Source of the DNA: Candidatus Hermodarchaeota archaeon
Lineage (GTDB): Archaea; Asgardarchaeota; Heimdallarchaeia; Hodarchaeales; Hodarchaeaceae
Direction: 5' to 3'
DNA length: 32,000 nt
Assembly: GCA_048886185.1 (NCBI GenBank)
Contig: JBHLKY010000008.1
Coordinates: forward strand, 90,947-122,946
The notes beneath the pieces are model-generated. The model was given only the letters and a program-made list of their open reading frames with translations, was not told where the DNA came from and searched no databases. The position numbers and the translations under genes were made by a program. Below are positions 7,263-24,612 of this stretch, one piece after another; positions within the stretch are counted from its first letter, which is position 1, and every line of letters begins with the position of its first letter.

Positions 7263-9437
7263 CTATATATGATCCTGAGCAATTTTTGCGACAGCTTTCT
7301 CAAGTAACCTATTTGCTGCTTTCCAATTCAATCCTGTTTTACTCAATGTTTGACCCCATGTCCTTCCTTGTAAAACCCGGGCAATTAACAGCAGTTCTTG
7401 ACTTGAACTGAGTTTCTTCACGTTTGATGAGACAAAATATTCAATGGACAACTCGTAAATCACATCTACCGCTAGTAAAAAATTAATTTGCCCTTTTAAG
7501 TAATTTTTCAGCCGGTAAACCCCGCTAGAGGTAATAGGAGGTTCGTAATTAGGAATAGGATTACAAGTCTTAATAATCTGTAAAACTAATTCTGGTTTCA
7601 TTGAATATAATGATTGGTTAAGTAAAGCTATGAACTGTAGTAGAAAATCAGCAGAAGCTTGATTAACAATAGTCTTCGCAGAAGGCGATAACGGACTTAT
7701 TACTACAATGTTCCACTCACCTGTTTCTGGAGTTTTGATTGGTCGAATATGAACAGCTTTAAAGTCAAATTTCTTCCAAAATTTCATTAATTTAACAGTT
7801 GCACCGAAACTTACCCCAATCCAGTCATATGTAGAGAATAATTGATTTTGAAGCTCTATTGCTATCCGTCCAAATCCTTTATCCATTAAACTAGGATGAG
7901 TCGCGATTCTCGCAATTCTTAAGCCACGAAGCTTTGCAAGCTCCTTAGAAAAATGTCGTATTCCAATTGTCGATATAAGATTCCCCTGAATAAAATCTCC
8001 AGATGTTACTCTAAGTATCTCTTGATCAGTCATCTCCCCCTCTTTTGCTAATTGGTTGGATACGAGTAGTTGTGTGGTGTTTTGAGAGTCCTTTCCATAC
8101 ATTCCTGTTAGAAAGTGTTTTCCAGAGTCTGTTAAAACTAGAAGGTCATTTGGTTGATTCCGATAATGGGAATAAACCAATAGTCCAAATAACTGCTTAA
8201 GCTGTGGTAAGCCTTTTTCTGAAAACAGATACACTGGATCTTCATATACTTGAAGATTAAAAGATTCTCTATCGAGGAATTGATGATCTATTTTTGACGA
8301 TTCAAGGTCAATATTCAGAAGAAAAGACTGGTTTAGTAACTCCTCAATTAAATCATCTGATAAAAATCTAATCGGTTGAGACAAAGAGAATTCATCATAA
8401 CGAATCTGCTTTTGTGTCTGTAAGTAATGCAGAAATTTGTATTGAAATCCTCTTCCAGCTCCCTCGTAACCATGTATTGTTGAAACAAAAATCTTTTTTG
8501 ATTTAATTTTCACAGTGTCCTTTAAAATATCTACAGGGATTGCAGCCGCTTCATCAAGTACAAAAAGATCGGTTTTCAAGTTATTATCTATTTCACTTGG
8601 CCATAAATAGTTAATTTTTGCTCTAGAGGTATGAATCCCTGATATTAATCCCTCCTGTTTAATTATATGAAAACGTATATTTTTAGATAGTAATCCTCGT
8701 GATAGAAAATTAAACAATGTTTGAACGTTCATAGGATGGGGAGAAGAGATGATGACTTTATATAACTGTTTACCTCTTTCTGAGAGTACTTGCGATAATA
8801 TTAATCCTATAGAAGCAGATTTTCCTCTTCCTCTATTGGCTAATAAAACAGAGCAGCTATTAGGGTGTTTTGAGTTAAGAATAATTCTGGTCATACTGTT
8901 AATTACATTTTTTTGTTCAGGAGTGACTGCAATGCTGTTAATTTGACTCTTTAGATTGATTTTATATGGCATTGGATTAAATTCAGAGATTACTTTAGAG
9001 GAGCTTGTATCTTTGGTTCTACACCGAGAGTTCTTCTGAATATTCTCAAGAAACCATCCTAATAATACAGATTTCATACGTTTTGCTGATGGTAGTAACA
9101 TTTCTCCTTGAACAAAGCGATTTTTATTAACCGAGTACACCCATTCAGAATAAGGTAACCCTAGAATAAAGATAATCCCCCCTCCACGAACTGTTTCCAG
9201 TAGAATATTAATTTTATTTGGAATAAATTCTTCTCGGAGATCAATAAGAAGAAAATCTACAGTTTGACCTAGTACAGTAAAAACATCATCAAAAGTGATC
9301 TTTCTTACATTCTTTAATTTGGGTAAATAGGCTTTTAGGCTTTGAGAAATCACTGATTGAGACTTTTGATCATCAATTACAAATAATCCGGCAGGATCCA
9401 TTCTCATTCTTTCTAGACAGTGCTGAAAAAATTCCAA
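7263..9437 (-). CDS. tmcA: tRNA(Met)/RNA cytidine acetyltransferase (ac4C; TmcA/NAT10 family)
   Basis: RGRGKSA Walker A, DEAAAIP, STIHGYEGAGRGF and GNAT RIARIATHP...GFG motifs. Confidence 0.93.
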   Translation of the reverse strand: MEFFQHCLERMRMDPAGLFVIDDQKSQSVISQSLKAYLPKLKNVRKITFDDVFTVLGQTVDFLLIDLREEFIPNKINILLETVRGGGIIFILGLPYSEWVYSVNKNRFVQGEMLLPSAKRMKSVLLGWFLENIQKNSRCRTKDTSSSKVISEFNPMPYKINLKSQINSIAVTPEQKNVINSMTRIILNSKHPNSCSVLLANRGRGKSASIGLILSQVLSERGKQLYKVIISSPHPMNVQTLFNFLSRGLLSKNIRFHIIKQEGLISGIHTSRAKINYLWPSEIDNNLKTDLFVLDEAAAIPVDILKDTVKIKSKKIFVSTIHGYEGAGRGFQYKFLHYLQTQKQIRYDEFSLSQPIRFLSDDLIEELLNQSFLLNIDLESSKIDHQFLDRESFNLQVYEDPVYLFSEKGLPQLKQLFGLLVYSHYRNQPNDLLVLTDSGKHFLTGMYGKDSQNTTQLLVSNQLAKEGEMTDQEILRVTSGDFIQGNLISTIGIRHFSKELAKLRGLRIARIATHPSLMDKGFGRIAIELQNQLFSTYDWIGVSFGATVKLMKFWKKFDFKAVHIRPIKTPETGEWNIVVISPLSPSAKTIVNQASADFLLQFIALLNQSLYSMKPELVLQIIKTCNPIPNYEPPITSSGVYRLKNYLKGQINFLLAVDVIYELSIEYFVSSNVKKLSSSQELLLIARVLQGRTWGQTLSKTGLNWKAANRLLEKAVAKIAQDHI

Positions 9438-19980: not shown

Positions 19981-20057
19981 GGGCCGGTGGTCTAGCTCGG
20001 TATGACGGCTGCCTCACACGCAGCAAATCACTAGTTCAAATCTGGTCCGGCCCACCA
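19981..20057 (+). tRNA. tRNA-Val(CAC), intronless, CCA encoded
   Basis: Acceptor stem GGGCCGG/CCGGCCC; anticodon arm GCTGC-CTCACAC-GCAGC; T-loop TTCAAAT; ends ACCA. Confidence 0.97.
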
Positions 20058-22362: not shown

Positions 22363-23274
22363 TTAGATTTTTTCGATTTTTTTTGCTGCAGCGAGCTTAA
22401 TGAATTCATGAACCTCAGAATAGGAACAATGATCAGAATAAGGAAAAAAATGTACGTCAATACGTTTTTGGCGCAAGCGTGCTGCCCAACCGGTAGGGGA
22501 GATTCGTACAGCTTCAGACATTTTGTCTTGGTATTGCTTTTCTACTCCCTGAAAGTTCTCAACCATTCTACGACTACCAACAAAAATCCCTGAATCACGA
22601 TCACTAGTGAAGATATCCCATTCTCCCCCAATCTCCTTATAAGTTTGGACTTTTTGATCTGATGCCCAAATTTTCACTTTCAAAGCATCACTAATTGTTT
22701 TGAGAAGTTTTTCCTTACCAATTTGATAAGAAGATATCCACACGTCTCTTGCTGGATAATTCCCTTCAGATAAAATCAATGTAATAATTTCTGAAATTAT
22801 TTTTTCTCTCGTAGGAAATTGAAATAATGAATCATTACCATAAGTATAATCAACCCAAAGATGATCTGAGCCTTGAATTAAATCGAATTCATTAAGAATT
22901 GGTGTTCCAAACCTGAAATCACCGGTATAGACTTCTTTTAATCCATCTCTTGACTCAATGACATAAATCAAGCTACCCAAACAATGGTTTGCATCTAGGG
23001 CGTGAATAACAAAATTATCAAAGTCTAATGATTGACTGGATTTTAATGTGAGGCATTTTTCAGGAGGGATCTCATAAAGCACCTTTATAACTGCTGCTGT
23101 TTCCTCAGAGCAAACTATTGTGGCATCAGGATCAGATAAACATGATTTGAGACCTGAGGTATGATCAGAGTGAGCGTGTGATAGGAAAAAATACCCTGAA
23201 GATTTTTTCCTTCGTACTCTTCGTTGAAATGGGAATTCATCAAAATAACTTTGAGCAATCGTTGAAAATACCAT
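22363..23274 (-). CDS. SNM1/Pso2/Artemis-like beta-CASP DNA nuclease
   Basis: FLSHAHSDHTSGL, DANHCLGS, YTGDFRF, DYTY, YQIGKEK and PYSDHCSYSE motifs. Confidence 0.75.
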   Translation of the reverse strand: MVFSTIAQSYFDEFPFQRRVRRKKSSGYFFLSHAHSDHTSGLKSCLSDPDATIVCSEETAAVIKVLYEIPPEKCLTLKSSQSLDFDNFVIHALDANHCLGSLIYVIESRDGLKEVYTGDFRFGTPILNEFDLIQGSDHLWVDYTYGNDSLFQFPTREKIISEIITLILSEGNYPARDVWISSYQIGKEKLLKTISDALKVKIWASDQKVQTYKEIGGEWDIFTSDRDSGIFVGSRRMVENFQGVEKQYQDKMSEAVRISPTGWAARLRQKRIDVHFFPYSDHCSYSEVHEFIKLAAAKKIEKI

Positions 23275-23509
23275 TTAACTTCTCCAATCTGGCATAATAC
23301 CTTATTTAGGGTTTAGGAATTATCTTTACATGATTTGACGAATACAATCTTTTTTCTTAATGTTATAAGACATGAAATCGTTTTTGAGATATCCACTCTT
23401 ATAACGGGATTAAAATATATTAATTTTGGTCAACAATAAAATATTACTGTTTATATTTATTGAATCATGATGTAGGAGGAGAGGATTGTTAATAATATCA
23501 ACTTGGTCA

Positions 23510-23531
23510 AATGAAAAAAGGATAGAAAAAA
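23510..23531 (-). terminator. Oligo-T tracts downstream of the permuted 5S precursor
   Basis: Minus strand reads TTTTTTCTATCCTTTTTTCATT directly after the 3' arm. Confidence 0.55.
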
Positions 23532-23540
23532 CTTTTGATT

Positions 23541-23571
23541 GCGCCTAATAGTTAGGAATCTCTGTTTCCGG
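23541..23571 (-). repeat. 3' processing arm of the permuted 5S precursor
   Basis: Minus CCGG-AAA-CAGAGATTC...TATTAGGCGC, complementary to 23688-23715. Confidence 0.85.
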
Positions 23572-23685
23572 GTTCGGAATGAGACCGGGTGTAACCCAGG
23601 CCCTTTGGCCGAGCAATACTCAGCTTTTCGATTTTCCCGATGGCTCGCGCACAACAGTACAGACCGAAACGGAACCTAACTTAAC
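23566..23685 (-). rRNA. rrf: Circularly permuted 5S rRNA gene: 3' half (23685-23617) precedes 5' half (23615-23566)
   Basis: 5' half UGCUCGGCCAAAGGGCCUGGGUUACACCCGGUCUCAUUCCGAACCCGGAA carries the conserved loop C; 3' half begins GUUAAG. Helix I UGCUCGGC/GCUGAGUA, helix II CCUGG/UUAGG, helix V UUUCGGU/AUCGAAA, helix IV with GCGA tetraloop; 120 nt in total. Confidence 0.92.
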
Positions 23686-23687
23686 TT

Positions 23688-23715
23688 CCGGCAGAGATTC
23701 GCAGGTTATTGGCGC
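23688..23715 (-). repeat. 5' processing arm of the permuted 5S precursor
   Basis: Minus GCGCCAATA...GAATCTCTG-CCGG; pairs with 23541-23571 (9-bp perfect helix plus outer GC helix). Confidence 0.85.
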
Positions 23716-23765
23716 ACAACAGATGTAGTTGCAGCTACAACCTGATAGGAGCGCATTCAAGAGTC

Positions 23766-23773
23766 TTTAAATA
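23766..23773 (-). promoter_or_regulatory. TATA box for the 5S precursor (TATTTAAA)
   Basis: Position predicts a start site near 23742-23746, upstream of the 5' arm. Confidence 0.55.
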
Positions 23774-23799
23774 TTATCCGTTAACCTGAGATTTTTAGA

Positions 23800-24612
23800 A
23801 TGAATTGGTCAGAATGGCAGAAAAGCTACTATCAGATAATTGAGCAATTAGATTTCGATATTGAGGCTGATAAAAAAGCAAGAAATCTATTAGAGAAATA
23901 TTTTATCAAGTTAAATCCAATCACAAAATATCAAATCTTCGAAAAGCTGAAAACTACTCTTCTAGAACCTATAATAATTGCTGGAGCAGGCCCTTCTTTG
24001 AAAAGAGATTTTTCAAATCTCTTTTTAGGGTTTTATAAAAACAAAATTTTAACTAAGTTTCGGACAATAGCTGTGGATGGTGCAACAGCATTATTCAAAC
24101 AAAATAAAATTATTCCATCAATAGTAGTAACTGATCTTGATGGTGATTTGACAGCGATTAGATGGGCTATCGAAAAAGGTGCTTTAACATTAATTCATGC
24201 CCATGGTGACAATCAACAACAGCTTTCTTTGTTTATTGACAAATATAATGAAATAATTGTAAACAATAATGTATGGGGAACTACTCAGTGTAAACCAAGA
24301 CATATTCTCTTTAATTTTGGAGGATTTACAGACGGTGATAGAGCAATCTTCTTAGCATTTCACTTTCAATCTCCTCTGATCTGCCTAATTGGCTTCGATT
24401 TTGGTACTCAAATCGGTGAATATAGTACTCTCAACTCTCCGATAAAGAAAGAACGAAAGAAGAAGCTTGAAAAATTCCAAATTGCCCTTAACTTACTATC
24501 AAACTTTCAATCTCAACACCGAGGGCTTCGCTACAATATGACATATCAAGGGGAAGAAATTTCAGGATTTCTAAAACTATCTATTTCTGACTTCCTCCAG
24601 AATTTAATTTAA
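23800..24612 (+). CDS. mptE: 6-hydroxymethyl-7,8-dihydropterin pyrophosphokinase (DUF115/COG1634)
   Basis: IAGAGPSL, AVDGAT, VVTDLDG, HAHGDN and NFGGFTDGDRA motifs. Confidence 0.9.
   Translation: MNWSEWQKSYYQIIEQLDFDIEADKKARNLLEKYFIKLNPITKYQIFEKLKTTLLEPIIIAGAGPSLKRDFSNLFLGFYKNKILTKFRTIAVDGATALFKQNKIIPSIVVTDLDGDLTAIRWAIEKGALTLIHAHGDNQQQLSLFIDKYNEIIVNNNVWGTTQCKPRHILFNFGGFTDGDRAIFLAFHFQSPLICLIGFDFGTQIGEYSTLNSPIKKERKKKLEKFQIALNLLSNFQSQHRGLRYNMTYQGEEISGFLKLSISDFLQNLI

What the first reader, a model, noticed from the sequence alone, without database searches (positions are those of the whole stretch)
23566..23685. Circularly permuted 5S rRNA gene
On the minus strand, the 5S 3' half (GUUAAGUUAGG...GCUGAGUA, 23685-23617) is transcribed before the 5' half (UGCUCGGCC...CCGAACCCGGAA, 23615-23566). 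Re-ordered, it folds into a full 119-120 nt archaeal 5S with helices I-V, loop C, loop E and a GCGA tetraloop, with compensatory G-U pairs. That conservation argues for function rather than decay. Known precedents: permuted tRNA genes (Cyanidioschyzon, Thermofilum), permuted mitochondrial 5S in brown algae, and a post-transcriptionally permuted 23S in Pyrococcus. I know of no genomically permuted 5S gene in an archaeal chromosome, but I could not search the literature. Standard rRNA finders would probably report only fragments.
Basis: partly seen in the sequence, partly recalled or inferred. Interest (0 to 1): 0.97.

Follow-up and report, generated by a model that had tools for sequence, protein, structure and literature searches.

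The report
Permuted, ring-forming 5S rRNA gene
This Heimdall-group Asgard archaeon encodes its only 5S ribosomal RNA back half first, between tRNA-splicing-type cut signals. Cutting and rejoining restores a normal 5S sequence as a 120-base ring, which would explain why 5S genes seemed to be missing from these relatives of eukaryotes.

Summary
On the minus strand, 23685-23617 matches 5S positions ~52-120 and 23615-23566 matches positions 1-51.

- **Standard search fails.** Rfam RF00001 finds only two sub-threshold fragments, and no other 5S signal exists in the 4.84-Mb, 96%-complete assembly.
- **Re-ordering restores a 5S.** The re-ordered sequence gives one full-length hit (72 bits) to a profile of canonical Asgard 5S.
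- **The fold covaries.** Across 49 related loci, 23 of 36 pairs show two-sided changes.
- **New here:** the flanks form a bulge-helix-bulge-like motif. It has a 9-bp covarying outer helix, a 4-bp CCGG/CCGG helix and AAG/AAA bulges. Its predicted cuts fall exactly at 23685 and 23566.
- **Enzymes are present.** The genome has two splicing-endonuclease paralogs and RtcB.
- **RNA support.** Metatranscriptome contigs from two studies, from close relatives, carry the predicted 23566-to-23685 joint. One is a 150-nt wrap of a 120-nt circle.
- **Distribution.** A model of the permuted form hits once in this genome. It also hits all sampled families of the class and many other Asgard families, in a pattern complementary to canonical 5S.

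Whether the ring itself is the ribosomal 5S, or is reopened at the helix I cap, is unresolved.

I found no publication describing this. This scan has flagged the same layout before on other DNA (241 notes, unchecked).

The parts
23766..23773 (-). TATA-box-like element (TATTTAAA) of an independent transcription unit; predicted start about 23745-23741
   Evidence: Sequence. The block tatttaaag[ag]ctcttgaa..gc[gt]c is conserved about 75 nt upstream of the central helix in the genus, and f4 loci carry aaactttaaa at a similar distance. Promoter function and transcription start are inferred.
23711..23715 (-). Distal leader strand (GCGCC) pairing with trailer GGCGC 23545-23541
   Evidence: MFE fold of 23725-23530 pairs leader and trailer (z = -3.6). 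Conserved only in part of the genus.
23692..23700 (-). Outer helix, 5' strand (GAAUCUCUG) of the bulge-helix-bulge-like motif
   Evidence: 9 contiguous pairs with 23564-23556. Covariation in 24 loci: 10 of 12 flank pairs have two-sided changes, 86% paired against 28-50% in slid controls.
23688..23691 (-). Central 4-bp helix, 5' strand (CCGG), pairs with 23571-23568
   Evidence: 4 of 4 pairs here. Relatives keep complementarity, not identity: CUGG/CCAG, CUGG/CCGG, CAGG/CCUG, CGGG/CCUG.
23685..23687 (-). 5' bulge AAG; predicted cut between A23686 and G23685
   Evidence: Geometry of the motif. The RNA joint in a relative starts at 23685.
23617..23685 (-). 5S rRNA 3' part (canonical nt 51-119): helix II 3' strand, helices V and IV, loop E, GCGA loop D, helix I 3' strand
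23615..23617 (-). Cap of helix I (AUU triloop: A119, extra U23616, U1) joining the canonical 3' and 5' ends
   Evidence: 7-bp stem plus a 3-5-nt cap in 48 of 49 loci. The cap is a YNCG tetraloop in 33 of 49 loci (all outside the window's genus); in the window's genus it is mostly an AUU, GUU or UUU triloop.
23566..23615 (-). 5S rRNA 5' part (canonical nt 1-50): helix I 5' strand, loop A, helix II 5' strand, helix III, loop C
   Evidence: (model 27-51, 20.8 bits).
23568..23571 (-). Central 4-bp helix, 3' strand (CCGG). The same bases are the 3' strand of helix III in the mature fold, so the two pairings are mutually exclusive.
23565..23567 (-). 3' bulge AAA; predicted cut between A23566 and A23565
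   Evidence: The RNA joint in relatives ends at 23566.
23556..23564 (-). Outer helix, 3' strand (CAGAGAUUC)
23541..23545 (-). Distal trailer strand (GGCGC) pairing with leader GCGCC 23715-23711
   Evidence: MFE fold of 23725-23530 pairs leader and trailer (z = -3.6). Conserved only in part of the genus.
23514..23531 (-). Two T6 runs (23531-23526, 23519-23514): likely archaeal transcription terminators
   Evidence: Sequence. T-runs follow the trailer in most relatives. Function is inferred.

Best explanation
This is the organism's only 5S rRNA gene, and it is encoded circularly permuted.

1. A short independent transcript is made on the minus strand (inferred: TATA-like box about 23770, T-runs about 23530).
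2. Its leader and trailer pair into a bulge-helix-bulge-like motif: outer helix 23700-23692 with 23564-23556, central helix CCGG 23691-23688 with CCGG 23571-23568, and bulges AAG and AAA.
3. The archaeal tRNA-splicing endonuclease cuts after the second bulge base on each strand, releasing G23685...A23566 (inferred).
4. RtcB joins the two ends (enzyme inferred; the joint itself is seen in RNA of close relatives).
5. The join recreates the canonical loop B sequence ...CCCGGAA-GUUAAG... It also frees CCGG 23571-23568 to form helix III.

The product is a 120-nt covalently closed 5S in which helix I is a 7-bp stem capped by AUU.

I think the ring itself is most likely the form built into the ribosome (about 0.55). 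The part up to and including ligation I hold at about 0.85-0.9.
For: **Shown**
- Swapped order of 5S parts.
- Sole 5S signal in a 96%-complete genome (one hit of the permuted model, 150.3 bits).
- Covariation of helices I-V in permuted order over 49 loci.
- Covariation of the outer helix, and complementarity-preserving changes in the central helix.
- The motif predicts a 120-122-nt circle in all 49 loci, and the restored junction always reads GAA(A)GUUAAG.
- Two splicing-endonuclease paralogs, each with N- and C-terminal domains, and one RtcB are present.

**RNA**
- Run X1 is a sediment metatranscriptome. It holds a 150-nt contig reading 23610->23566 and then 23685->23581. The joint is scored 'goes back 120' with 6 ambiguous letters. 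The length equals 120 + 30, as expected if these contigs were built with 31-letter words (my assumption) from a closed 120-nt path. The contig passes through the helix I cap.
- Run X2 is a wetland metatranscriptome from another study. It holds two contigs that run past 23691 into the reverse complement of UCUCAUUCCGAAC, which is the same joint.
- The X1 ring differs from the window at 3 positions and equals the predicted ring of same-genus locus L019.

**For the ring as end product**
- The cap is always tight (3-5 nt on a constant 7-bp stem) and is a YNCG tetraloop in 33 of 49 loci. That looks like a structural cap, not a processing spacer.
- E. coli ribosomes tolerate 5S with its native ends joined (PMC7283268).
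- A functional circular SRP RNA arises from a permuted gene (PMC4731332).
- Circular 23S is reported within archaeal ribosomes (PMC12918454).
Against: - The RNA evidence comes from assembled contigs of congeneric organisms, not raw reads of this organism.
- Contigs cannot show molecule ends. A mix of precursor (supplying cap words) and reopened linear 5S (supplying joint words) could assemble into the same closed path.
- The motif is relaxed. On the inner side of the 5' bulge I found no convincing helix: GUU/AAC gives 3 bp only if the bulge is 2 nt.
- Six loci of this genus have an A.C mismatch in the central helix.
- Cleavage by the endonuclease and ligation by RtcB were not tested.
- In the window's genus the cap is a plain AUU triloop, not a stable tetraloop.
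- The 5S fold is not the single-sequence MFE.
- The permuted tRNAs of C. merolae are reopened after circularisation, so reopening has precedent.
Confidence: 0.6

Rival explanations
1. Same gene, same cutting and ligation, but the ring is only an intermediate. It is reopened at the helix I cap (removing or keeping U23616) to give a conventional linear 119-120-nt 5S, as in the permuted tRNA genes of Cyanidioschyzon merolae.
For: There is precedent in permuted tRNAs expressed through a circular intermediate (Soma 2007, as cited in PMC4267664). Archaeal circular pre-16S and pre-23S are generally thought to be re-linearised (PMC12918454). Contigs cannot show ends. In this genus the cap is not a special stable tetraloop.
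Against: The cap is only 3-5 nt on a constant 7-bp stem, with no spacer to carry a processing signal. It is a YNCG tetraloop in 33 of 49 relatives, which suggests selection for a stable closed hairpin. The stem (7 bp) is shorter than I judge helix I of canonical Asgard 5S to be (about 9 bp, read by eye from the alignment, not counted). Opening it would leave a weak terminal helix. Both RNA contigs run straight through the cap.
Confidence: 0.28
2. The RNA is trimmed but never ligated. The mature 5S is a linear, permuted molecule with helix I closed by the cap and its ends in loop B. It would be permuted in the final product, as proposed for brown-algal mitochondrial 5S.
For: Valach et al. 2014 (PMC4267664) describe 5S permuted in the final product. 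A nick in loop B might be tolerated, because helices II and III hold the two sides together.
Against: RNA contigs from two independent studies contain the covalent 23566-to-23685 junction. The flanks form a splicing-type motif whose cuts restore the canonical sequence to the base in all 49 loci. A mere trimming signal would not need that. RtcB is present.
Confidence: 0.07
3. Not a working gene: a rearranged 5S pseudogene or an assembly artefact, with the true 5S on unassembled DNA.
For: The assembly is a 75-contig, 96%-complete MAG, and rRNA genes are often missing from MAGs.
Against: The same order occurs in 49 distinct loci, including closed chromosomes (CP084166, CP084167, CP070695). Compensatory changes are strong. 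No canonical 5S was found in the closed same-genus genome G010. The canonical hits in relatives are bacterial contaminants. The RNA is present in metatranscriptomes.
Confidence: 0.02

Closest known systems
Permuted SRP RNA gene of Thermoproteus tenax / T. uzoniensis (Plagens et al. 2015, eLife, PMC4731332)
   Same: A chromosomal, permuted gene for a universal structured RNA that standard searches could not find. Leader and trailer form a BHB motif, which the heterotetrameric tRNA-splicing endonuclease cuts. The ends are ligated and the circular RNA is the functional form.
   Different: It is a different RNA (SRP RNA, not rRNA) and is confined to a few Thermoproteus species. Its cleavage and protein binding were shown experimentally. 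Here nothing is shown biochemically, and the layout spans a whole class and many further Asgard families.
Circularly permuted tRNA genes (Cyanidioschyzon merolae, Soma et al. 2007, cited in PMC4267664; Thermofilum pendens, from my own knowledge)
   Same: The 3' half is encoded upstream of the 5' half. A BHB at the leader-trailer junction leads to circularisation. The break point coincides with known intron positions.
   Different: The tRNA circle is reopened at the acceptor-stem ends by RNase P and tRNase Z across a real spacer. Here the native ends are bridged by only 3-5 nt, and reopening is doubtful.
Permuted mitochondrial 5S rRNA of brown algae and other stramenopiles (Valach et al. 2014, PMC4267664)
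   Same: A 5S rRNA whose gene is not collinear with the canonical molecule, with helix I closed as a hairpin. It is missed by the general 5S model.
   Different: It is organellar. The ends lie at the junction of the alpha and gamma domains, not in loop B. It is permuted in the final product with no ligation, and no BHB is involved.
Circularly permuted 23S rRNA of Pyrococcus furiosus (Birkedal et al. 2020, PMC7758197) and circular 23S in archaeal ribosomes (PMC12918454)
   Same: BHB excision and ligation of an rRNA by the tRNA-splicing machinery. Circular or permuted rRNA ends up in ribosomes.
   Different: In those cases the gene is collinear and the RNA becomes permuted or circular afterwards. 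Here the gene is permuted and processing restores collinearity. PMC12918454 states that 5S rRNAs are not processed through circularisation.

Membership tests
5S rRNA (Rfam RF00001) | Full-length match to the covariance model at or above the gathering score (38 bits) | tested here: not met
   The native sequence gives only fragments of 20.8 and 17.9 bits. This is expected for a permuted gene. Infernal could not be run on the re-ordered sequence.
5S rRNA (Rfam RF00001) | Collinear full-length sequence similarity to canonical 5S after re-ordering | tested here: met
   nhmmer profile of 19 canonical Asgard 5S genes: one hit on the re-ordered sequence, profile 5-113 of 119, 72.2 bits, E 2.5e-23. 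The native sequence gives two swapped hits. 0 of 20 shuffles hit.
5S rRNA (Rfam RF00001) | Three-way junction with helices I-V supported by compensatory changes; loop C, loop E and loop D motifs | tested here: met
   36 of 36 pairs are standard in the window. Over 49 loci, 93.8% of cells are paired against 24-45% in slid controls, and 23 pairs show two-sided change. CCGAAC, GUAC...GGGAA and GCGA are conserved.
5S rRNA (Rfam RF00001) | Component of the large ribosomal subunit | not testable with these tools
   Indirect only: it is the sole 5S-like locus in the genome, and the RNA is present in metatranscriptomes.
Bulge-helix-bulge substrate of the archaeal tRNA-splicing endonuclease | Central 4-bp helix flanked by 3-nt bulges on opposite strands | tested here: met
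   CCGG/CCGG with bulges AAG and AAA. The central helix has 4 of 4 pairs in 43 of 49 loci and 3 of 4 in 6. Complementarity is kept through CUGG/CCAG, CAGG/CCUG and CGGG/CCUG.
Bulge-helix-bulge substrate of the archaeal tRNA-splicing endonuclease | Helices closing both bulges (strict hBHBh' form) | tested here: inconclusive
   The outer helix of 9 bp is present and covaries. No convincing inner helix was found (at best GUU/AAC, 3 bp). So this is a relaxed motif of the kind that heterotetrameric enzymes accept (PMC4731332).
Bulge-helix-bulge substrate of the archaeal tRNA-splicing endonuclease | Cleavage by the endonuclease at the bulges | not testable with these tools
   The enzyme genes are present: two paralogs of 206 and 212 aa with both domains. 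Their subunit arrangement is inferred, not shown.
Permuted RNA genes expressed through a circular RNA | 3' part upstream of 5' part, with leader and trailer forming the splice motif | tested here: met
Permuted RNA genes expressed through a circular RNA | RNA carrying the ligated junction, or a circular molecule | tested here: inconclusive
   The junction 23566|23685 occurs in contigs of two metatranscriptome studies, one a 150-nt wrap of a 120-nt path. These come from congeneric organisms and from assembled contigs, so ends and circularity of single molecules are not shown.
Brown-algal type permuted 5S (mtPerm-5S) | Ends at the junction of the alpha and gamma domains; permuted in the final product without ligation | tested here: not met
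   The break here lies in loop B of the beta domain, and the ligated junction is seen in RNA. Compare PMC4267664.

The most novel reading that the evidence does not exclude
The ribosomes of Heimdallarchaeia, and by the model search of many other Asgard lineages, contain a covalently closed circular 5S rRNA. It is made from a permuted gene by the tRNA-splicing endonuclease and RtcB.

The permutation may have arisen from a BHB intron in loop B. Hadarchaea carry a normal-order 5S with a 20-30-nt insertion that, as I read the sequence, lies at that same site. On this view the intron's inner helix became the leader-trailer helix.

The 5S genes 'missing' from closed Asgard genomes would thus be present but unreadable to current annotation tools.
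Probability: 0.5. Interest if true: 0.92.

Novelty: new variant of a known kind. Interest (0 to 1): 0.85.

Why it matters
- **A rule would be broken.** 5S rRNA is regarded as essentially constant and 'easily identified' in archaeal genomes (PMC4267664). 5S is explicitly said not to go through circularisation in archaea (PMC12918454).
- **A known gap would be explained.** The authors of the closed Heimdallarchaeum genomes reported that 5S genes 'could not be predicted' (PMC8813620). This locus type explains that gap.
- **Annotation consequences.** It implies that rRNA annotation and MAG quality standards (presence of 5S) systematically fail for the archaeal group closest to eukaryotes.
- **A new dependency.** An essential ribosomal RNA would depend on the tRNA-splicing machinery. 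This extends the known 'moonlighting' of that machinery from SRP RNA in one genus to rRNA in a large clade.
- **A new kind of ribosome component.** If the ring is the mature form, it would be the first naturally circular 5S in a ribosome.

Tried and rejected
- **Rfam gathering scan** of the window and genome: no 5S. This is a consequence of the permutation, not evidence of absence.
- **Single-sequence MFE folding.** Folding the re-ordered linear RNA, the ring and the cut native RNA shares only 7-8 of 36 pairs with the 5S model (5S model -30.2 against MFE -40.9 kcal/mol). Energy alone neither supports nor refutes the fold, so I relied on covariation.
- **Strict hBHBh' motif.** I first drew the bulges on the outer side of the central helix. 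That does not fit. The correct register has the central helix contiguous with the outer helix on the 5' strand. No inner helix was found.
- **Upstream CCGGAA as a duplication relic.** I rejected reading it as a relic of the 3' CCGGAA. Relatives keep complementarity (CUGG/CCAG, CAGG/CCUG), not identity.
- **Canonical 5S in relatives G006 and G023.** Both lie next to bacterial 23S on 2.3-2.6-kb contigs, so they are contaminants.
- **ORF 23457-23654** (65 aa, overlapping the RNA gene): no Pfam match, taken as spurious.
- **Bacterial sigma-70 and intrinsic-terminator scan:** nothing above shuffles, and not applicable to archaea anyway.
- **RNA cover of the flanks.** No contig covers 23450-23557 or 23702-23800. 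With contigs this says nothing about precursor abundance.
- **Literature:** searches for a permuted, circular or intron-bearing archaeal 5S returned nothing relevant.

Full report
**What is in the sequence.** Read on the minus strand, the intergenic region 23275-23799 lies between a metallo-beta-lactamase/DRMBL-like ORF (22363-23274, minus) and an MptE-like ORF (23800-24612, plus). It contains a 120-nt stretch, 23685-23566, built from the two parts of a 5S rRNA in swapped order.

- A permissive Rfam scan places RF00001 positions 27-51 at 23590-23566 (20.8 bits).
- Positions ~50-120 align upstream, inside a forced alignment of 23719-23615 (17.9 bits).
- Nothing reaches the 38-bit gathering score in the window.
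- Nothing reaches it in the whole 4.84-Mb, 75-contig, 96%-complete assembly, whose only 5S-like signals are these two fragments.

Infernal cannot be run here on an artificial sequence. I therefore built a profile HMM from 19 canonical-order 5S genes of other Asgard families (found) and ran nhmmer.

- The re-ordered sequence (23615-23566 followed by 23685-23617) gives a single hit over profile positions 5-113 of 119 (72.2 bits, E 2.5e-23).
- The native sequence gives two hits in swapped order (profile 45-113, then 4-50).
- Twenty shuffles give none.

Threading the Rfam consensus structure onto the window sequence gives 36 standard pairs out of 36. The GCGA loop D, the loop E GUA/GAA motif and the loop C CCGAAC are all in place. 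Single-sequence MFE does not recover this fold, so the structural case rests on comparison with relatives.

**Relatives.**
- RF00001 searched in 40 relatives gives the same split signature in 20 of 21 same-genus genomes and in three other families of the class.
- The only two canonical hits lie beside bacterial 23S on tiny contigs, so they are contaminants.
- A degenerate pattern for the 3' junction retrieved 60 loci from the genome collection. About 55 have GTTAAG about 94 nt upstream, which marks the permuted order. Nearly all of these are labelled Heimdallarchaeota or Hodarchaeota, including the closed genomes CP084166, CP084167, CP070665, CP070695 and CP070760.
- In an alignment of 49 distinct loci (A1), the permuted-order 5S structure has 93.8% of cells paired against 24-45% when partners are slid. 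23 of 36 pairs show changes on both sides, and no shuffle out of 500 reaches the observed covariation.

This excludes decay and misassembly.

**The flanks.** The leader and trailer pair, and the pairing has the shape of a bulge-helix-bulge motif.

| Element | Sequence | Coordinates |
|---|---|---|
| Outer helix, 5' strand | GAAUCUCUG | 23700-23692 |
| Outer helix, 3' strand | CAGAGAUUC | 23564-23556 |
| Central helix, 5' strand | CCGG | 23691-23688 |
| Central helix, 3' strand | CCGG | 23571-23568 |
| 5' bulge | AAG | 23687-23685 |
| 3' bulge | AAA | 23567-23565 |

- The usual endonuclease rule is a cut after the second bulge base; I take this from my own knowledge of BHB substrates. Under that rule the released RNA is exactly G23685...A23566.
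- Joining its ends gives ...CCCGGAA-GUUAAG..., the canonical loop B sequence.
- The same construction works in all 49 loci and gives circles of 120-122 nt.
- The outer helix covaries strongly: 10 of 12 pairs have two-sided change, with 86% paired against 28-50% in slid controls.
- The central helix keeps complementarity rather than identity (CUGG/CCAG, CUGG/CCGG, CAGG/CCUG, CGGG/CCUG). The repeated CCGGAA in the window is therefore a palindrome effect, not a duplication scar.
- The 3' strand of the central helix is also the 3' strand of helix III. The precursor and mature pairings are thus alternatives.
- The motif is relaxed. I found no convincing inner helix, and six same-genus loci have an A.C mismatch in the central helix.
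- The genome has two splicing-endonuclease paralogs, each with both domains, and one RtcB. Two paralogs suggest the heterotetrameric type, which accepts relaxed motifs (PMC4731332). This is an inference.

**RNA.** One run search found two metatranscriptome runs from different studies holding part of the stretch. Results when laid on the locus:

- Run X1 (sediment) has a 150-nt contig reading 23610->23566 and then 23685->23581. The joint is scored 'goes back 120' with six ambiguous letters.
- Its length is 120 + 30. That is what a closed 120-nt path would give if these contigs were assembled with 31-letter words (my assumption about the assembler; the only stated 31-letter figure is the run index). 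The contig also runs through the helix I cap.
- Run X2 (wetland) has two contigs that continue past 23691 into the reverse complement of UCUCAUUCCGAAC, which is the same joint.
- The three differences of the X1 contig from the window are exactly those of same-genus locus L019. The RNA therefore belongs to a congeneric organism.
- Contigs cannot show molecule ends. A closed molecule is strongly suggested but not proven.

**Ring or intermediate?**

In favour of the ring as end product:
- Helix I is a constant 7-bp stem with a 3-5-nt cap in 48 of 49 loci. The cap is a YNCG tetraloop in 33 of 49, which leaves no spacer for a processing site.
- Joining the native 5S ends is compatible with ribosome function in E. 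coli (PMC7283268).
- The permuted SRP RNA of Thermoproteus works as a circle (PMC4731332).

Against:
- Permuted tRNAs are reopened after circularisation.
- The window's genus has only an AUU triloop as cap.
- No end data exist.

I put the ring as end product at about 0.55 and reopening at about 0.3.

**Distribution.** A covariance model of the permuted form (R1, built from A1) behaves as follows.

- It hits this genome once (150.3 bits).
- It hits all sampled genomes of the class: 38 of 38 in six families.
- It hits many other families of the phylum at 75-108 bits, and one large family at 31-78 bits.
- Families that have a canonical 5S over the Rfam cut-off score 40 bits or less, or nothing.

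The two layouts are complementary across the sampled Asgard genomes.

**Comparison with what is known.**
- The closest system is the permuted, circularised SRP RNA of Thermoproteus (PMC4731332).
- Next come the permuted tRNA genes.
- Brown-algal mitochondrial 5S is permuted differently and is not ligated (PMC4267664).
- In Pyrococcus 23S the logic is reversed: a collinear gene gives a permuted RNA (PMC7758197).
- A recent survey states that archaeal 5S is not processed through circularisation (PMC12918454).
- The authors of the closed Heimdallarchaeum genomes could not find 5S genes (PMC8813620).
- Seven literature searches found no description of a permuted or circular archaeal 5S.

Internal notes of this scan report the same layout in many other genomes. 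I reached the BHB reading before consulting them (note), and I re-tested their main claims here.

**Verdict.** This is a real, functional, genomically permuted 5S rRNA gene. Its sequence is restored by splicing-type excision and ligation. It is a new variant of a known kind (permuted RNA genes rescued by the tRNA-splicing machinery). The surprise value is high because it concerns a universal rRNA in the archaeal lineage nearest to eukaryotes.

Noticed in passing
L083 (JAGGTB010000013, Hadesarchaea) 2400-2550 minus; L085 (JAWCKV010000033, Hadarchaeales) 7785-7924 plus: 5S genes in normal order that pass RF00001 (67.3 and 72.2 bits) but are 151 and 140 nt long. As I read the sequence, a 20-30-nt insertion follows ...CCCGGAA and precedes (A)GUUAAG, the same loop B site as the Heimdall permutation break. 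CCCG/CGGG and AAA-type bulges around it suggest a BHB intron in a 5S gene. cmscan places the insertion a few bases earlier. Both genes follow a tRNA.
   Followed up: partly
L005, L006, L026-L028, L030 and other family-f3 loci (e.g. L005 1441-1735): Heimdallarchaeum-type loci carry an extra conserved hairpin of about 30 nt between the outer helix and the central helix on the 5' strand. The cut register is shifted by one base (CAGG or CGGG, then AAA, then GUUAAG). The closed Heimdallarchaeum genomes have two copies each.
   Followed up: partly
G000 contig C8 47026-47280 and 79836-80096 (loci L092, L093), upstream of the window on the same contig: Two tRNA-splicing endonuclease paralogs (206 and 212 aa, each with N- and C-terminal domains). 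This suggests a heteromeric enzyme. Catalytic residues were not checked.
   Followed up: partly
G057:C158:18818-18998, G067:C142:8287-8467, G116:C450:3654-3834, G151:C209:2868-3048, G130:C7:20101-20282 (family f14): Hits of the 152-position permuted model span about 181 nt at 49-52 bits. This suggests a roughly 30-nt insertion (perhaps an intron) inside permuted 5S genes of another Asgard family.
   Followed up: no
L049 (JBHLQZ010000003, labelled Thorarchaeota) and L072 (DATKZI010000026, labelled Bathyarchaeia): Both carry permuted 5S loci nearly identical to Heimdall types (f3-like and f4-like). The bins or labels are probably wrong.
   Followed up: no
window 19981-20057 plus: tRNA-Val (CAC), 60.2 bits, about 3.5 kb from the 5S locus on the opposite strand; no intron.
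   Followed up: no
L053 (Glycomyces sp. NRRL B-16210) 313-340 plus: A bacterial sequence matching the 5' half of a 5S up to ...CCGAACCCGAAA and then diverging; possibly a truncated 5S copy.
   Followed up: no
G017:C125:17038-17117: A same-genus genome has a second, partial hit of the permuted model (positions 27-107, 69 bits) on another contig. It may be a fragment or a second copy.
   Followed up: no
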